A DNA stretch of 64,000 nt, taken from contig NC_135808.1 of the NCBI RefSeq assembly GCF_964213995.1, positions 7,316,001-7,380,000 of the forward strand, written 5' to 3'. Shown one piece after another: positions 2,232 through 52,427 of this stretch. The position numbers and the translations under genes are program-made. This DNA comes from Mustelus asterias (lineage: Eukaryota). The notes below the pieces were generated by a model. The model was given only the letters and a program-made list of their open reading frames with translations. It ran no database searches and was not told where the DNA came from. Position 1 is the stretch's first letter, and every line of letters starts with the position of its first letter.

Positions 2232-2265
2232 ATGTATCCAGTTATGGGTGTACTGCTAATTTCTG
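2232..2265 (+). CDS. Gene A exon 1: signal peptide (MYPVMGVLLIS, phase 1)
   Basis: ATG at 2232, hydrophobic codons, donor G|GTAAGT at 2266. Phase 1 joins the V exon in frame (...LLIS-A-VAVADVKVTQSP). An acceptor (ttcacAG, 2217-2218) lies just upstream, so a 5'UTR exon may exist. Confidence 0.75.
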
Positions 2266-4352: not shown

Positions 4353-4694
4353 CTGTTGCTGTTGCCGACGTCAAAGTAACTCAAAGCCCAGGTATTATCG
4401 ACGTAATAGAAGGAGGGCAATTTCAAATGTCCTGCACATTTACTGCGTCAAACGTGTCACCAGTCTTTGGATTCAGCTGGTACAAGCAAGCATCAGGTCA
4501 TGAAAAGAGTTGCGTTACGAACACATCTGAAGAATTTGTAGGCCGAGTTTTGAAGAAACACGGACAATTTTTAAACATCAGCCAAATTACAGTCATGGAG
4601 GCAAATCGGAATGATTCCGGGATATATTATTGTGAAGTGGATTCGCCGGAATTTGGCAAAGGAGCCGGAATGGGCACACAGGTAACTGTTAAAG
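4353..4694 (+). CDS. Gene A exon 2: single VJ-type Ig V domain, NKp30/NCR3-like
   Basis: Acceptor cattacAG 4351-4352, donor G|GTACGT 4695. Translation VTQSP..MSCTF..FSWYKQ..VTNTSEEFVGRV..DSGIYYC..GKGAGMGTQVTVK has B-strand Cys, C-strand Trp, DxGxYxC and a J-like GxGT in one exon. Confidence 0.93.
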
Positions 4695-4982
4695 GTACGT
4701 TCCTATGTGCTCCCATCCGCCTTTCTTTACATTTATTCTTTTCAATAACAGATAAAACTAATTATTCCTACAATATCCACTCTGTAATTCTGAGATAATA
4801 GTCATGAGGAATGTGTTCATTTTGAATACATGGAGATTAATGCTCATTTATCCAATTCCATATTAATTATTTGTTTGACTTGTACTCCATTAAAGCATAT
4901 ATTTCAAAGTTATTTCCACATTAACCTGGGGCATAGAGTTAAATGTGCAAATTGTATGTGAGAGTGTCTGATTTTTCTTTCT

Positions 4983-7434
4983 GTCATGGGGGACTTTAAC
5001 TTTCCAAATATTGATTGGAACCTTTGTAGGTCAAATAGTTTGGATGGGGCACTTTTTGTGCAGTGTGTGCAGGAGGGTTTCCTGACACAATATGTGGATA
5101 GTCCGACAAGGGGTGAGGCCACATTGGATTTGGTACTGGGAAATGAACCGGGCCAAGTGTTAGATTTGGTTGTGGGAGAGAACTTTGGAGATGGTGACCA
5201 CAATTCGGTGTCTTTTGTTATTGCAATGGAGAGGGATAGGGCCGGACGGCAGGGCAAGGCTTACAATTGGGGGAGAGGTAATTATGATGCGATTAGGCAA
5301 GAATTAGGGGGCATAAGATGGGAACAGAAACTGTCAGGGAAAGGCACTGATGAAAAGTGGAACTTTTTCAAGGAACAAATACTGGGTGTCCTTGATAGGT
5401 ATGTCCCTGTCAGGCAGGGAGGAAATGGCCGAGTGAGGGAACCGTGGTTCACAAAAGAGGTGGAATGTCTTGTGAAAAGGAAGAGGGAAGCTTATGTAGG
5501 GATGAGGAAACAAGGTTCAGATGGCTCGACTGAGGGTTACAAGTTAGCAAGGAACGAGCTGAAAAAGGGGCTGAGGAGAGCTAGGAGGGGACATGAGAAG
5601 TCCTTGGCGGGTCGGATCAAGGAAAACCCCAAGGCTTTTTACTCTTATGTGAGGAATAAAAGAATGACCAGGGTGAGGTTAGGGCCGGTCAAGGACAGTG
5701 GTGGGAACTTGTGTATGGAATCAGTAGAGATAGGCGAGGTGATGAATGAATACTTTTCTTCAGTGTTCACCAAGGAGAGGGGCCATGTTTTTCAGGAAGA
5801 GAAGGTGTTACAGGCTAATAGGCTGGAGGAAATAGATGTTCGGAGGGAGGATGTATTGGCAGTTTTGAATAAACTGAAGGTCGAAAAGTCCCCTGGGCCT
5901 GATGAAATGTATCCTAGGATTCTTTGGGAGGCGAGGGATGAGATTGCAGAGCCTTTGGCTTTGATCTTTGGGTCCTCGCTGTCCACGGGGATGGTGCCAG
6001 AGGACTGGAGAGTGGCAAATGTTGTTCCTCTGTTTAAGAAAGGGAATAGAAATGACCCTGGTAATTATAGACCGGTTAGTCTGACTTCGGTGGTTGGTAA
6101 ATTGATGGAAAAGGTCCTTAGGGATGGGATTTACGACCATTTAGAAAGATGCGGATTAATCCGGGATAGTCAGCACGGATTTGTGAAGGGCAAATCGTGC
6201 CTCACAAATTTGATAGAATTTTTTGAGGAGGTAACTAGGTGTGTTGATGAAGGTAGGGCGGTTGATGTCATATACATGGATTTTAGTAAGGCGTTTGATA
6301 AGGTCCCCCATGGTCGGCTTATGATGAAAGTAAGGAGGTGTGGGATAGAGGGAAAGTTGGCCGATTGGATAGGTAACTGGCTGTCTGATCGAAGACAGAG
6401 GGTGGTGGTGGATGGAAAATTTTCGGACTGGAGGCAGGTTGCTAGCGGAGTGCCGCAGGGATCGGTGCTTGGTCCTCTGCTCTTTGTGATTTTTATTAAT
6501 GACTTAGAGGAGGGGGCTGAAGGGTGGATCAGTAAATTTGCTGATGACACCAAGATTGGTGGAGTAGTGGATGAGGTGGAGGGGTGTTGTAGGCTGCAAA
6601 GAGACATAGATAGGATGCAAAGCTGGGCTGAAAAATGGCAAATGGAGTTTAACCCTGATAAATGTGAGGTGATTCATTTTGGTAGGACTAATTTAAATGT
6701 GGATTACAGGGTCAAAGGTAGGGTTCTGAAGACTGTGGAGGAACAGAGAGATCATGGGGTCCATATCCACAGATCTCTAAAGGTTGCCACTCAAGTGGAT
6801 AGAGCTGTGAAGAAGGCATATAGTGTGTTAGCTTTTATTAACAGGGGGTTGGAGTTTAAGAGCCGTGGGGTTATGCTGCAACTGTACAGGACCTTGGTGA
6901 GACCGCATTTGGAATATTGCGTGCAGTTCTGGTCACCTCACTATAAGAAGGATGTGGAAGCGCTGGAAAGAGTGCAGAGGAGATTTACCAGGATGCTGCC
7001 TGGTTTGGAGTGTCGGTCTTATGAGGAAAGGTTGAGGGAGCTGGGGCTGTTCTCTCTGGAGCGGAGGAGGCTGAGGGGAGACTTAATAGAGGTTTATAAA
7101 ATGATGAAGGGGATAGATCGAGTGAACGTTCAAAGACTATTTCCTCGGGTGGATGGAGCTATTACAAGGGGGCATAACTATAGGGTTCATGGTGGGAGAT
7201 ATAGGAAGGATATCAGAGGTAGGTTCTTCACGCAGAGAGTGGTTGGGGTGTGGAATGGACTGCCTGCAGTGATAGTGGAGTCAGACACTTTAGGAACATT
7301 TAAGCGGTTATTGGATAGGCACATGGAGCACACCAGGATGATAGGGAGTGGGATAGCTTGATCTTGGTTTCAGATGAAGGTCGGCACAACATCGTGGGCC
7401 GAAGGGCCTGTCCTGTGCTGTACTGTTCTATGTA
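4983..7434 (+). mobile_element. Young CR1-clade LINE (HER1-like), 5'-truncated, uninterrupted ORF2 (C-terminal APE endonuclease plus RT)
   Basis: 791-aa ORF 4986-7361 with GDFNFP, LDLVL, DH, YMDFSKAFD, GVPQGSVLGP and FADD motifs. CR1 3' hairpin (GGGCCGAAGGGCCT) and TTCTATG tail. Confidence 0.95.
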
Positions 7435-12884: not shown

Positions 12885-13013
12885 GTCAGGCCGAGAGCAA
12901 GGAAGAAGCTTCAAAGCAAAAGTTGATCGCTTTGTCTTCAGCGTTGGTGGTCACTACATTGGTGCTTCTCCTAATCGCCATCCTTATCTTCTTGAGCCGC
13001 AACAAGTGTCAAG
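12885..13013 (+). CDS. Gene A exon 3: stalk plus uncharged transmembrane helix
   Basis: Acceptor ttccccAG 12883-12884, donor G|GTAATT 13014, phase 1-1. GQAESKEEASKQK-LIALSSALVVTTLVLLLIAILIFL-SRNKCQ. Confidence 0.88.
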
Positions 13014-14816: not shown

Positions 14817-14848
14817 AGCGAACACCAAGAACTCGAAATAAAGCACAG
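14817..14848 (+). CDS. Gene A exon 4: short cytoplasmic exon (ERTPRTRNKAQ)
   Basis: Acceptor ttttgcAG, donor CAG|GTAAGA, 32 nt. Phase 1 to 0 exactly bridges the TM exon and the last exon. Confidence 0.75.
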
Positions 14849-19799: not shown

Positions 19800-21200
19800 T
19801 GTGAAGTGGTGTGACCTGCTCTTCAGCAACCTTTAGTGGTTAAGTCAAAATAACTCCCTGACACTCTCTCTAAAGTCAACAGGTAACAATTTATTATCCA
19901 AATAACAGTGAACAAATTAGCTAAATAATTAACAAACCGAATAAAACACGACGCTAATGGAATATTGTTCCATCAAATACAATTCCCAATCATTAACAAA
20001 AAATAGAATTTTAGTCACTCTCTAAATTACAACCAGCTTTTGTGTCTTTTGGAAAATTCTGGGCCTTCTCTGTCTATTCTTCTTTCTTCTTTGGTACTTT
20101 TACTATCGAGATGAGGCGTTGAGCTAAGAGCTATGAGCTGTAGCAGGCGGCAGTTGATCTCTGCCTTTTGTCCCGCTGCTCTCTTCTTTTATACCTGTGA
20201 TGACATATCAATATCCCTCACAATGGAATTGGTCCTAAGTTGCCAAAATCATCAGATTTAAATTTAATAGGTTGCTGGCATCTAATTGCCTAATTCAAAT
20301 TGATTGGCTGGGTTCAAAAAGATTCAAACGCCTGAAAGTCTGTTGCCTTGGTAACCCTGTTGTTTGGCCTTTCGATACAGTAAATGGCAGAACCCTTAAG
20401 AGTATTGATAGGCAAAGGGATCTGGGTGTACTGGTACACAGGTCACTGAAAGTGGCAATGCAGGTGGAGAAGGTAGTCAAGAAGGCATACGGCATGCTTG
20501 CCTTCATCAGCTGGGGTATTGAATTTAAAAATTGGTAAGTCATGTTGCAGCTTTATAGAAACTTAGTTAGGCCGCACTTGGAATATAGTGTTCAATTCTG
20601 GTCGCCACTCTACCAGAAGGATGTGGAGGCTTTGGAGAGGGTGCAGAAAAGATTTATCAGGATGTTACCTGTTATGGAGGGCATTAGCTATGAAGAGAGG
20701 TTGGAGAAACTTGGTTTGTTCTCACTGGAGTGGTGGAGGTTGAGGGGAGACCTGATAGAAGTCTACAAGATTATGAGAGGCATGGACAGAGTGGATAATC
20801 AGAAGTTTTTTCCCAGGGTGGAAGAGTCAATTACTAGGGCGCATAGGTTTAAGGTGCGAGGGGCCAGGTTTAAAGGAGATGTACGAGGCAGATTGTTTAC
20901 ACAGAGAGTAGTGGGTGCCTGGAACTCGTTGCCGGGGGAGGTAGTGGAAGCGGATACGGTAGTCACTTTTAAGGGGCGTCTTGACATGTACATGAATAGG
21001 ATGGGAATAGAGGGATATGGTCCCCAGAAGGGTAGGGGGTTTTAATTAAGTCAAGCAGCATGGTCGGTGCAGGCTTGGAGGGTCGAAGGGCCTGTTCCTG
21101 CGCTGTAATTTTCTTTGTTCTTTTTCTTTGATACAAATGTTTCATTTTTTGCCACTCTATCTGCTTGCACTTCTAACCTCTGAGCACAACTTCTCAACAC
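19800..21200 (-). mobile_element. Possible solo-LTR-like element split by the CR1 at 20377-21130
   Basis: TG..CA ends, and TATAAAA and AATAAA on the minus strand. No TSD confirmed. Confidence 0.3.
20377..21130 (+). mobile_element. CR1 3' fragment (same subfamily as 59665-60412)
   Basis: RT C-terminal ORF 20542-21045 (RPHLEY..FWSP), CR1 tail, GATACA duplicated at both flanks. Confidence 0.9.
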
Positions 21201-21304
21201 ATCTTCCTGCGGTTTTACATTAGGTCAGGAATGGCACTATTATGCTGAGCAACTGCAGCGTTAACATCTCCGTTTCTTTCTTTTTAAATTTTGTTTCATT
21301 TGAG

Positions 21305-21553
21305 GGAGACACGTCAAACAATGTTGTTTATGCTGACCTGCGCATCGCCAAACCCAAAACACAGAGACCGGGGAACCGCACGAACAATCATGTCGCGGGA
21401 TCCCCGCCTCACCGAGGCGAAGACAATGTTGTGTACGCGGCAGTGGGGCCAGGTCTTGATAAAAAGAACAAGAATCGGGCGCCAGTGAGATCTCGAAACC
21501 AGATGGAAGAACCGGTAGTGTACGGAATGGTTCGGCCTCCAGTAGGCCAATGA
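21305..21553 (+). CDS. Gene A exon 5: cytoplasmic tail with three ITIMs (VVYADL, VVYAAV, VVYGMV)
   Basis: Long polypyrimidine tract then tttgAG (21303-21304), phase 0, stop TGA 21551-21553. Three V-x-Y-x-x-L/V motifs with Tyr codons at 21329, 21434 and 21521. Confidence 0.85.
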   Translation, partial: GDTSNNVVYADLRIAKPKTQRPGNRTNNHVAGSPPHRGEDNVVYAAVGPGLDKKNKNRAPVRSRNQMEEPVVYGMVRPPVGQ

Positions 21554-23100
21554 TGTCTCAGGCATGGGATCGACAGAGAAAGGGCTGAAAATTAGTACAT
21601 CAATAGTGAGTTCAGGGTTGAGATTTCAATGAACATGATCTTTGGTACAAAATGTAGGGTGCAGTAGACCGTTCCTGTAAATTAAAGAGAGCCGCATTTT
21701 TGCAATATATTGCGGTTATTTTTATCCTCAAAAGTTCATGAACACGCGATTTATTTTTATTCTTTTACTTTTTATTTTGATTTTGATCATTGTAACCTGC
21801 TACGAATTATGATAGCTTGCCTTTTTTTGTACGGTCTTCACTATTTGACACCTGTCATCGTAATCATTTTCCAATGAAGGAATCCTTTAACTATCGTAAG
21901 TTTTCCTGGAGATATTGAGGAATAGATTTTCTCCAGATACGTTGCTCTCGCGGGTAAGAAGGTGGTTGAGTATGTCCGTGATTCGTTTAGGGTTCGTGAT
22001 GTTGGCTTAGCTATTTTCCTTTAAACGAAGTCTTTTCTCTAAATAATATTCGCGGATTTGTATGGTTGGCTGATAAGGCTGATAATGTTATTCTCTCATC
22101 TATTGCTGTGAAGAATTAAAATGTTGCAAAAGGAGCCGGGAGGCCAATAATTTTCATGTTTATTCATACGCAAACGCACAGCCAAGTTCGATAGACAACC
22201 ACTCGGTGTGGGAGGCATGGTGGTCTAGTGGCTGCACGGCTGTCTCACAGCGCCAGAGACGCAGGTTCGATACCAGCCTCGGGTGTGCGGAGTTTGCAGG
22301 TTCTCTTCGTGTCTGCGTGCGTTTCCCCCGGGTGCCCCGGTTTCCTCCCACAGTTCAAAAGATGTGCTGGTTCGGTGCATTGGATGTGCTAAATTCTCCC
22401 TCAGTATACCCGAGTGTAGCGACTGGGGAATTTTCACAATAACTTCATTGCAGTATTAATGTAAGTCTGCTTGTGACACTACTAAGTAAACATTAATAAA
22501 TTATTGCAGACAGCTATACGTTGCTGTCCCTGTTGCCTCGACATTCCACCCACCCCACTACTACAGAAATCCTCCAAAAACAATCTCCACCCGCCTGGCT
22601 TACCACACAAACATATTGTGAGGTTGAACAGTTTGAAGGCTCTGTACTTACCTCACAGGTATATCTTGACAACAAAACTGAATGACTCATAAATTGTCAT
22701 TTTGATGTGCCGGGCTGGAGCTTTAGGTACACAATCGAATCCTTCTGCTCTCTGTATGGAGCTGAGCTTGGGGATTGGCGGGTAGGTAGAGACCTCCACC
22801 TCCTCCACCCCCTACCATCCCCATCCCCGTGAATGGAGTTTCCTTCTTTCACTGAAACAGCCTCATGACTGCGACGTGGATCTGGCAAAGTGTGTAGAGA
22901 CAACCCTGCTATGGTTTGTTTGAAGGAAAATTTAATATTTATTGAATGCAAGTTCATTCCCTGCTAGACGTTTCTCTGCTGGTGAAGCATTTTCTCAAAA
23001 TTGATTCAAACTGCTTCAAGGCCAGGTAGATCACCTCAGCCTGCGATCTCTGGGCGAGCAGGTTTTGGTGGAGATTCCTTCGTTGTCTTTGCTTCGCATG

Positions 23101-51645: not shown

Positions 51646-51780
51646 CTTTGTTTCGTCGAGCCAGAACTATTATCACCATTAGCAGTACCAGGATAATAAG
51701 CAAGGTGACCCCCCCTGCCACTGCGATCCACATCCAGTCAAACAGAAAGTTGTTTACAGGGAGTGATTTGTCGCAAACAT
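51646..51780 (-). CDS. Gene B exon 3: Cys-containing stalk plus uncharged TM
   Basis: Acceptor tttctacAG, donor G|GTATTT, phase 1-1. HVCDKSLPVNNFLFDW-MWIAVAGGVTLLIILVLLMVIIVLA-RRNK. Confidence 0.88.
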
Positions 51781-52100: not shown

Positions 52101-52427
52101 GCTGTACGGTCACCGAGGTTCCGTTGCCTGATTGCTTCGGTTTCCCCAAAATTTCAATCTCACAGTAATATATCCCGGACTCGCATTCTGTCATATTCTT
52201 AATACGGATGGATGCATCCTTCCTCGAATTGAAAGCATGCTGGTCCGCTTTAACAATTCTGTTCTTGTACCTCGGAGAGTCAAAATCTATGGGGTTGTCA
52301 TCCCTCCTCCAGCTGTAGGTTCCCAGCCCTTGTAACTGAAAACTGCAATTCAAAATCACGCTTTCACCTTGGAATATATGAACTGAACCGGGTCTTTGCA
52401 CTACGGGAGAAGTGGCGGCCTCCGTAC
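52101..52427 (-). CDS. Gene B exon 2: single VJ-type Ig V domain, NKp30/NCR3-like
   Basis: Acceptor cactAG, donor C|GTAAGG, phase 1-1. VVQRP..GESVILNCSF..GTYSWRRD..DASIRI..ESGIYYCEIEILGKPKQSGNGTSVTVQ, resembling the NKp30 YxCxVEVLG....GNGT G-strand. Confidence 0.93.

What the first reader, a model, noticed from the sequence alone, without database searches (positions are those of the whole stretch)
21305..21553. Triple-ITIM tail on an NKp30-like V domain, apparently built by internal duplication
Seen: VVYADL, VVYAAV and VVYGMV with tyrosines 35 and 29 residues apart, each preceded by acidic or Asn residues (DTSNN, GEDN, EEP). The first two share nucleotide sequence (ACAATGTTGT.TA.GC). Established: V/I/L/S-x-Y-x-x-L/V motifs recruit SHP-1/2. 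Inference: an inhibitory NKp30 relative whose motifs arose by tandem duplication within one exon.
Basis: partly seen in the sequence, partly recalled or inferred. Interest (0 to 1): 0.7.

Follow-up and report, generated by a model that had tools for sequence, protein, structure and literature searches.

The report
Ancient inhibitory shark NKp30-family receptor
This is the spliced last exon of a shark immune-receptor gene related to the killer-cell receptor NKp30; its three tyrosine motifs likely send an 'off' signal, the same three-motif layout occurs in other sharks, rays and a chimaera rather than being a recent copy, and a neighbouring gene with a similar binding domain is a likely 'on' partner.

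Summary
In detail: 21305-21553 encodes VVYADL, VVYAAV and VVYGMV, with tyrosines 35 and 29 residues apart. It is exon 5 of a five-exon gene (leader, germline-joined VJ domain, uncharged transmembrane segment, 32-nt exon, tail) identical to NCBI XP_078075389.1. Contigs of three runs from two studies splice exon 4 onto it. The gene lies in a tandem NCR3-like cluster on the contig that holds all 140 MHC class I matches. 'Likely inhibitory NKp30 relative' is supported; phosphatase binding is untested. 'Built by internal duplication' is not supported by the cited evidence: the shared bases follow from shared amino acids (P = 0.31), the spacers are unrelated, and 8 of 14 aligned shark, ray and chimaera tails keep all three tyrosine slots, so the layout is old. 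Found in addition: the gene 20 kb upstream has a sister V domain (70%) and an arginine-bearing transmembrane exon of another origin, a candidate activating partner whose expression is not shown. This scan has noted inhibitory tails and candidate pairs in shark NKp30-like clusters before, on other DNA. The key paper on shark NCR3 (Kinlein 2021) could not be read, so novelty in print is open.

The parts
2232..2265 (+). Exon 1, coding part: leader peptide, phase-1 GT donor
   Evidence: the five exons together translate exactly to P0001
4353..4694 (+). Exon 2: end of leader and germline-joined VJ-type Ig V domain (G-x-G-T in the G strand in the same exon)
   Evidence: Pfam V-set E 4e-13; predicted V fold, block pLDDT mostly 81-97; AG/GT limits
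12885..13013 (+). Exon 3: short stalk and transmembrane segment without a charged residue (LIALSSALVVTTLVLLLIAILIFLS)
   Evidence: helix 131-166 in the model
14817..14848 (+). Exon 4: 32-nt cytoplasmic exon (phase 1 to phase 0) that puts the tail in frame
   Evidence: loose ends of contigs in X4, X5, X1 map only here
21305..21553 (+). Exon 5, coding part: 82-residue tail with three ITIM-consensus motifs and stop codon (the finding)
   Evidence: predicted disordered, pLDDT under 50
21323..21340 (+). Motif 1, VVYADL
   Evidence: Tyr kept in 11 of 14 aligned tails
21428..21445 (+). Motif 2, VVYAAV
   Evidence: Tyr kept in 13 of 14 aligned tails
21515..21532 (+). Motif 3, VVYGMV
   Evidence: Tyr kept in 10 of 14 aligned tails; white shark and basking shark models end at or just before this Tyr
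21554..22127 (+). 3' untranslated region; ATTAAA at 22115-22120
   Evidence: X4 and X5 contigs run to 22127 (contigs cannot prove an RNA end); hexamer position

Best explanation
The exon is the spliced cytoplasmic tail of a five-exon shark receptor of the NCR3 (NKp30-like) cluster that likely acts as an inhibitory receptor. Shown: leader, one germline-joined VJ domain, a transmembrane segment with no charged residue, and a tail with three V-V-Y-x-x-L/V motifs; exon 4 is spliced to exon 5; the three-slot layout is shared with other sharks, rays and a chimaera. Inferred from known ITIM receptors (recalled mechanism): on ligand binding a Src-family kinase would phosphorylate the tyrosines, helped by the acidic residues before them; two phosphomotifs about 30 residues apart would engage the tandem SH2 domains of SHP-1 or SHP-2, which would dampen signals from activating receptors on the same lymphocyte. 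The motifs resemble each other mainly because they are held to one consensus; they were present before the shark/ray split, and lineages have since lost one or two of them. Less certain: the gene 20 kb upstream, with a sister V domain on an arginine-bearing transmembrane exon, is its activating counterpart.
For: Spliced exon 4-5 joint in 3 of the 4 runs laid, from two studies; the fourth run holds the unspliced DNA. The five exons translate exactly to NCBI XP_078075389.1. Motif clustering beyond chance. Same V-TM-tail order in database models from Heterodontus, Pristiophorus, Carcharodon, two Scyliorhinus species, Chiloscyllium, Hemitrygon, Hypanus, Narcine, Rhinoraja and Callorhinchus; 8 of 14 aligned tails keep Tyr in all three slots while spacers diverge. 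A paralogue 75 kb upstream (V 34% identical) also has three Tyr motifs in its tail exon. No charged TM residue, whereas NCRs carry one to pair with ITAM adaptors (PMC3972465, passages read). Best genomic match of the nurse-shark protein named NCR3 lies 36 kb upstream (65%). All 140 MHC class I matches are on this contig.
Against: No phosphorylation, phosphatase binding, ligand or cell type is shown. Only 30 letters of the loose ends were printed, so RNA shows the exon 4-5 joint; the V-TM-exon 4 joints rest on splice sites, frame and database models. X4 and X5 have no recorded library type and may come from the project that made this assembly; X1 is only guessed to be RNA. The V domain is 25-31% identical to tetrapod NCR3 and does not group with it in the tree; in the fold search NKp30 ranks 15th, among nanobodies and TCRs. 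6 of 14 relatives lack one or two slots, so three motifs are not required. In X1, 11 of 13 listed coding differences change a residue: the tail outside the anchors is weakly constrained, and sparing of the anchors in so few changes is not significant alone. Gly at +1 of motif 3 departs from the usual SHP-binding preference (recalled).
Confidence: 0.8

Rival explanations
1. The three motifs arose by tandem duplication inside this exon recently enough to leave a DNA trace.
For: 14 of 16 identical bases around motifs 1 and 2; a weaker third copy at 87-nt spacing. The Callorhinchus relative has four motifs, so motif number can rise. Flanks of motifs 2 and 3 score +0.19 across species, against -0.40 (sd 0.36) and -0.04 (sd 0.54) for controls.
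Against: The match is expected from the shared amino acids (P = 0.31); overall identity on the 105-nt diagonal is 44 of 144 (31%); spacers are unrelated. The layout is shared with rays and a chimaera. In 58 control motifs from 37 other search hits, Ala at +1 (33 of 58) and Glu or Asp at -3 (32 of 58) are common and VVYA occurs 3 times (taxa of most controls were not looked up, some may be distant members of this family).
Confidence: 0.07
2. The tyrosine motifs serve mainly as Y-x-x-hydrophobic sorting signals (AP-2 endocytosis), or dock adaptors other than phosphatases, making this an endocytic or modulatory receptor.
For: Each motif also fits Y-x-x-L/V (sequence; sorting consensus recalled). 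Motif 3 has a conserved Gly at +1 in several sharks.
Against: A hydrophobic residue at -2 is kept in most relatives and acidic residues precede the motifs; sorting signals do not need these (recalled). The spacing of 35 and 29 residues excludes an ITAM, and none of the three motifs has Thr at -2, so no ITSM in this protein.
Confidence: 0.1
3. The exon is not part of the V-domain gene, or the gene is a decaying copy.
For: The exons are spread over 19 kb of repeat-rich DNA; the first AG after the pyrimidine tract is out of phase with the TM exon unless exon 4 is used; fast residue change in the tail.
Against: Exon 4 supplies the phase and is spliced in three runs; the open frame is intact over 261 codons; orthologues have the same order of parts.
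Confidence: 0.03

Closest known systems
Shark NCR3 gene family (Kinlein et al. 2021, PMC8273117; title seen in reference lists only, text not held); nurse-shark protein named NCR3 in UniRef (P0061)
   Same: Germline-joined VJ domain, leader-V-TM exon plan, same cluster (best match of P0061 is 36 kb upstream), MHC chromosome; orthologues in catshark and white shark are named 'NCR3-like' by NCBI; NCR3 clusters on shark MHC chromosomes are listed in the supplement of PMC10751288.
   Different: V only 34% identical to P0061; P0061 has a transmembrane Lys and no tail, this gene has an uncharged TM and three Tyr motifs. Whether Kinlein et al. describe such a subtype could not be checked.
Human and tetrapod NKp30 (NCR3, CD337)
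   Same: One Ig V-type domain, short stalk, type I membrane protein, MHC linkage; NKp30 structure 3noi matches the model (E 4e-10, TM-score 0.74 on the target).
   Different: 25-31% V identity to possum, lizard and turtle NCR3; NKp30 signals through a charged TM residue and ITAM adaptors (PMC3972465, passages); here no charge and an ITIM-type tail. The G-S/F pair before the Trp of strand C seen in those NCR3 rows and in neighbouring paralogues is replaced and three residues are missing near C''-D (alignment), so B7-H6 binding should not be assumed.
Paired receptors such as Xenopus and mammalian CEACAMs (PMC5112662, passages read); KIR, LILR, SIRP and hagfish APAR (recalled)
   Same: Adjacent genes with related ligand-binding exons and opposite signalling parts; similarity concentrated on the V exon (606-nt ungapped block at 84%).
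   Different: V identity is 70%, below the 80-93% reported for Xenopus CEACAM pairs; dS is 0.165, so the exchange is not very recent; both genes face the same way; no shared ligand or co-expression shown.

Membership tests
Shark NCR3 (NKp30-like) family | Single exon encoding a non-rearranging VJ-type V domain | tested here: met
   Exon 4353-4694 holds both cysteines and G-x-G-T-x-V-T-V
Shark NCR3 (NKp30-like) family | Linkage to the MHC chromosome, in a cluster with recognised NCR3 genes | tested here: met
   140 of 140 MHC class I matches on contig C8, most at 21-43 Mb, one at 3.7 Mb; this gene at 7.3 Mb; best match of nurse-shark NCR3 36 kb away
Shark NCR3 (NKp30-like) family | V domain groups with named NCR3 proteins | tested here: inconclusive
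   Groups (99/94) with shark proteins of which some are named NCR3-like; deep branches to nurse-shark P0061 and tetrapod NCR3 are unresolved; no non-NCR3 outgroup was in the tree
NKp30 in the strict sense (activating NCR) | Charged transmembrane residue for zeta/gamma association | tested here: not met
   No Arg or Lys in the hydrophobic segment
NKp30 in the strict sense (activating NCR) | Binds B7-H6; expressed on NK or T cells | not testable with these tools
   No binding or tissue data obtained
ITIM-bearing inhibitory receptors | V/I/L/S-x-Y-x-x-L/V motifs (consensus recalled) in a cytoplasmic tail | tested here: met
   3 of 3 tyrosines in the tail fit; tail follows the TM helix and is predicted disordered
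ITIM-bearing inhibitory receptors | Motifs conserved while surrounding sequence diverges | tested here: met
   Tyr kept in 11, 13 and 10 of 14 aligned tails at slots 1, 2 and 3
ITIM-bearing inhibitory receptors | Tyr phosphorylation, SHP-1/SHP-2/SHIP recruitment and inhibition | not testable with these tools
   Needs biochemistry
Paired activating/inhibitory receptors | Linked gene with opposite signalling module | tested here: met
   Leader, V and Arg-bearing TM exons in frame at G000:C8:7.298-7.306 Mb; no ITIM-type exon found between it and this gene other than simple-repeat and scattered single-motif frames
Paired activating/inhibitory receptors | Highly similar, homogenised ligand-binding domains | tested here: inconclusive
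   70% protein, 86% DNA; sisters at 99/97 and 94/98; a clade of the two charged-TM V domains (Mustelus, S. torazame) is rejected, p-AU 0.005, a group named after the tree was seen
Paired activating/inhibitory receptors | Both expressed, same ligand | not tested
   No reads were laid on the neighbour, and no database protein for it appeared among the 13 hits
Internal tandem duplication | Similarity between repeat units beyond the selected motif | tested here: not met

The most novel reading that the evidence does not exclude
The NKp30 family of cartilaginous fishes is a paired-receptor system: a three-ITIM inhibitory arm as old as the chimaera/elasmobranch split, from which activating decoys are built again and again by copying the inhibitory gene's V exon onto an adaptor-coupling transmembrane exon. 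This gene and its upstream neighbour are such a pair, and purely activating mammalian NKp30 is the remnant of that system.
Probability: 0.4. Interest if true: 0.65.

Novelty: new variant of a known kind. Interest (0 to 1): 0.4.

Why it matters
NKp30 is one of few NK-cell receptors traceable from mammals to sharks and is known as an activator. [quoted passage not shown] Receptors with several ITIMs are ordinary in vertebrates, the protein is already an NCBI model, and the duplication story that gave the finding its appeal does not hold, so the interest is moderate.

Tried and rejected
Recent duplication: tested by synonymous redraw, diagonal identity, spacer alignment and cross-species flank scores; not supported. 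Alternative acceptors at 21223 and 21309 were considered from the sequence; the runs use 21305. The 109-codon open frame starting at 21224 is intron plus exon, not a longer exon. The run search listed no holder on record as RNA; the spliced joints come from runs of unrecorded or guessed type. PDB sequence search and fold search show a V domain but cannot separate NKp30 from antibodies and TCRs. A second candidate pair (V at 7.225 and 7.250 Mb, 73%) was weakened: the Arg lies at the edge of a TM exon that runs into a repeat element, so it may be a truncated copy. Papers not held: Kinlein 2021, Flajnik 2012, Ohta and Flajnik 2015, and two further PMC ids recalled for Ohta 2019 and Flajnik 2018. 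Full-text searches: NCR3 + cartilaginous fish + ITIM + MHC gave 0 papers; XMIV + Xenopus MHC gave 0; searches listed no title on inhibitory shark NCR3; in PMC12227049, PMC10751288 (text and supplement), PMC11372145 and PMC12619710 the term ITIM does not occur. These blanks do not cover the papers that are not held. Look-ups of earlier findings by place and by sequence gave nothing. No complex was predicted: the claimed binding needs phosphotyrosine.

Full report
Observation. The + strand frame at 21305-21553 encodes 82 residues and a stop, with VVYADL, VVYAAV and VVYGMV; the Tyr codons are at 21329, 21434 and 21521, 35 and 29 residues apart. These are the only tyrosines in the cytoplasmic tail. 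None of 20,000 residue shuffles gave three such motifs, and only 2 of 2,455 long stop-free frames in the window plus 370 kb of flanking DNA held three canonical motifs: this one and a repeat-like frame. The 14-of-16 base match between motifs 1 and 2 is present.

Gene structure. The exon belongs to a five-exon gene: leader 2232-2265, V 4353-4694, TM 12885-13013, a 32-nt exon 14817-14848, and the tail. All introns are GT-AG and the exons translate exactly to P0001, NCBI XP_078075389.1, 'uncharacterized protein LOC144497825', Mustelus asterias, 261 aa. The TM exon ends in phase 1 and the tail starts in phase 0; the 32-nt exon reconciles them. Of four runs laid on 21130-22190, three (X4 and X5 from one study; X1 from another organism and study, 95-99% alike) have contigs that fit from 21303 and carry a loose 5' end matching exon 4, which occurs once in the window; the fourth (X2) holds the unspliced DNA and may be this assembly's source. 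Only 30 loose letters were printed, so RNA shows the exon 4-5 joint alone. A genome search with the tail found this exon and one paralogue, no intronless copy. The predicted structure is a V-type Ig domain, one long helix and a disordered tail. The TM segment has no charged residue.

Family. The V exon is of the germline-joined VJ type (Pfam V-set). It lies in a tandem cluster of at least 13 related V exons between 7.14 and 7.55 Mb of contig C8, with a second group at 20.4-21.2 Mb. All 140 MHC class I matches of the genome search are on C8. The nurse-shark protein named NCR3 in UniRef (P0061) has its best match 36 kb upstream at 65% and matches this gene at 34%. Catshark and white-shark orthologues are named 'NCR3-like' by NCBI, and the supplement of PMC10751288 lists NCR3 clusters on white shark, catshark and sawfish MHC chromosomes. 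Against a strict assignment: identity to possum, lizard and turtle NCR3 is 25-31%, the tree does not resolve the deep branches (30 rows, two further rows failed domain extraction and were left out), and NKp30 is only rank 15 in the fold search, among nanobodies and TCRs. It is best filed as a member of the shark NCR3-like cluster, not as NKp30 itself, whose defining charged TM residue (PMC3972465, passages) it lacks.

Age of the three motifs. A search of 1.84 billion cluster representatives gave 245 hits, 150 listed; 20 were looked up for names. I aligned 14 tails: this one, a Mustelus paralogue and 12 database proteins from ten other chondrichthyan genera. Eight keep Tyr in all three slots: this gene, the paralogue 75 kb upstream (LVYAKL, VVYASL, TVYGIV; V 34% identical), Heterodontus, Pristiophorus, Chiloscyllium, the skate Rhinoraja, the ray Hemitrygon, and the chimaera Callorhinchus, which has a fourth. 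Not every kept slot is a canonical ITIM (for example VVYSAP, VYYTEM). Six have one or two. White shark and basking shark models end at or just before the third Tyr. The chimaera lineage split from elasmobranchs about 420 million years ago (abstract opening of PMC6238376, search listing), so the layout is likely that old and has been reduced in some lineages.

Duplication test. With the protein fixed and synonymous codons redrawn, the 14-of-16 match arises in 31% of draws; identity on the 105-nt diagonal is 44 of 144; the two spacers align no better than shuffles as DNA (P = 0.68) or protein (P = 0.82). Across the seven tails with exactly three motifs, flanks of motifs 1 and 2 score -0.40, while the same motif in other species scores +1.2, +0.4 and +1.2; motifs 2 and 3 score +0.19, within two standard deviations of the controls. 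Acidic residues before the motif and Ala after Tyr are common in 58 control motifs from 37 other hits. The Asn that lengthens the match at motif 2 is Ala or Thr in close orthologues and Lys in X1. The evidence cited for duplication is therefore explained by a shared consensus; an ancient duplication cannot be excluded.

Mechanism. Shown: a type I receptor plan with an uncharged TM and three conserved ITIM-consensus motifs. Inferred from known ITIM receptors (recalled): ligand binding, Src-family phosphorylation, binding of the tandem SH2 domains of SHP-1 or SHP-2 to two motifs about 30 residues apart, and damping of nearby activating signals. The spacing rules out an ITAM. Ligand and cell type are unknown; the V domain differs from NCR3 rows and neighbouring paralogues before strand C and near C''-D, so B7-H6 binding is not assumed. 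In X1, 11 of 13 listed coding differences change a residue and none touches a Tyr or its -2 and +3 anchors; the numbers are too small to carry weight.

Candidate partner. The next gene upstream has a leader, a V exon 70% identical in protein and a TM exon with an Arg (LIAMGVRLAVFAVLIMITISLVY), all in frame. The two V exons share an ungapped 606-nt block at 84%: 130 of 169 bases in the 5' intron, 294 of 342 in the exon, 86 of 95 in the 3' intron; the leader region is 72% with gaps; dN/dS in V is 0.96 at dS 0.165. The neighbour's TM exon is not related to this gene's (score 34) but to that of the Lys-TM gene next to it (135), to Heterodontus P0002 (107) and to nurse-shark NCR3 (76). Scyliorhinus torazame has a model with the same mix, a V of this clade on a Lys TM (P0019). 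The two Mustelus V domains are sisters (99/97, 94/98), and a clade of the two charged-TM V domains is rejected (p-AU 0.005, tested after seeing the tree). In the skate, two genes with consecutive LOC numbers have a Lys TM and a three-motif tail and near-identical V ends. This fits repeated copying of V exons between inhibitory and activating genes, as described for Xenopus CEACAM pairs (PMC5112662, passages), but those pairs are 80-93% identical, a one-time duplication and fusion fits as well, and expression of the neighbour is not shown. I put the functional pair at about 0.45.

What is known. Shark NCR3 is a described multigene family; I saw only the title of the main paper and could not read it or four related papers, so I cannot say whether ITIM-bearing subtypes are in print. 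The searches that found nothing are listed under Tried and rejected. Earlier notes of this scan describe inhibitory tails and candidate pairs in shark NKp30-like clusters on other DNA, one of them further along this contig; they are unchecked AI notes, seen after I had recorded my reading, and are not counted as support.

Verdict. A real, spliced, likely inhibitory tail on a shark NCR3-cluster receptor; an old layout, not a visible internal duplication; a plausible activating partner next door. New variant of a known kind, interest 0.4.

Noticed in passing
G000:C8:7297890-7305995 (L033), + strand: Upstream neighbour with leader, sister V exon (70%) and Arg-bearing TM exon of different origin; candidate activating partner.
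   Followed up: partly
G000:C8:7250397-7262571 (L028, L029, L036), + strand: Paralogue with V, TM and a three-Tyr tail exon; the last codons of its tail run into what looks like a repeat insertion.
   Followed up: partly
G000:C8:7225530-7232600 (L025, L026), + strand: V 73% identical to the 7250397 gene; its TM exon has an Arg near its start and runs into a repeat element, no tail found.
   Followed up: partly
window 52102-52425 and 51656-51780, - strand: Second VJ-type gene with an uncharged TM exon, facing this gene; no tail assigned. A frame at about 22880-22700 on the - strand ends in IVYLKL after an AG, unverified and possibly chance.
   Followed up: partly
   Followed up: partly
G000:C8:20.39-21.17 Mb: A second group of at least 11 related V exons, next to the MHC class I cluster that starts at 21.6 Mb.
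   Followed up: no
window 4962-7358, + strand: A 799-codon open frame that looks like a LINE reverse transcriptase (label from recall) in intron 2; many shorter pieces of the same kind and short interspersed repeats fill the introns.
   Followed up: no
P0008, P0163, P0164 (white shark, basking shark): Both lamniform models stop at or just before the position of the third Tyr, suggesting one shared loss of motif 3.
   Followed up: no
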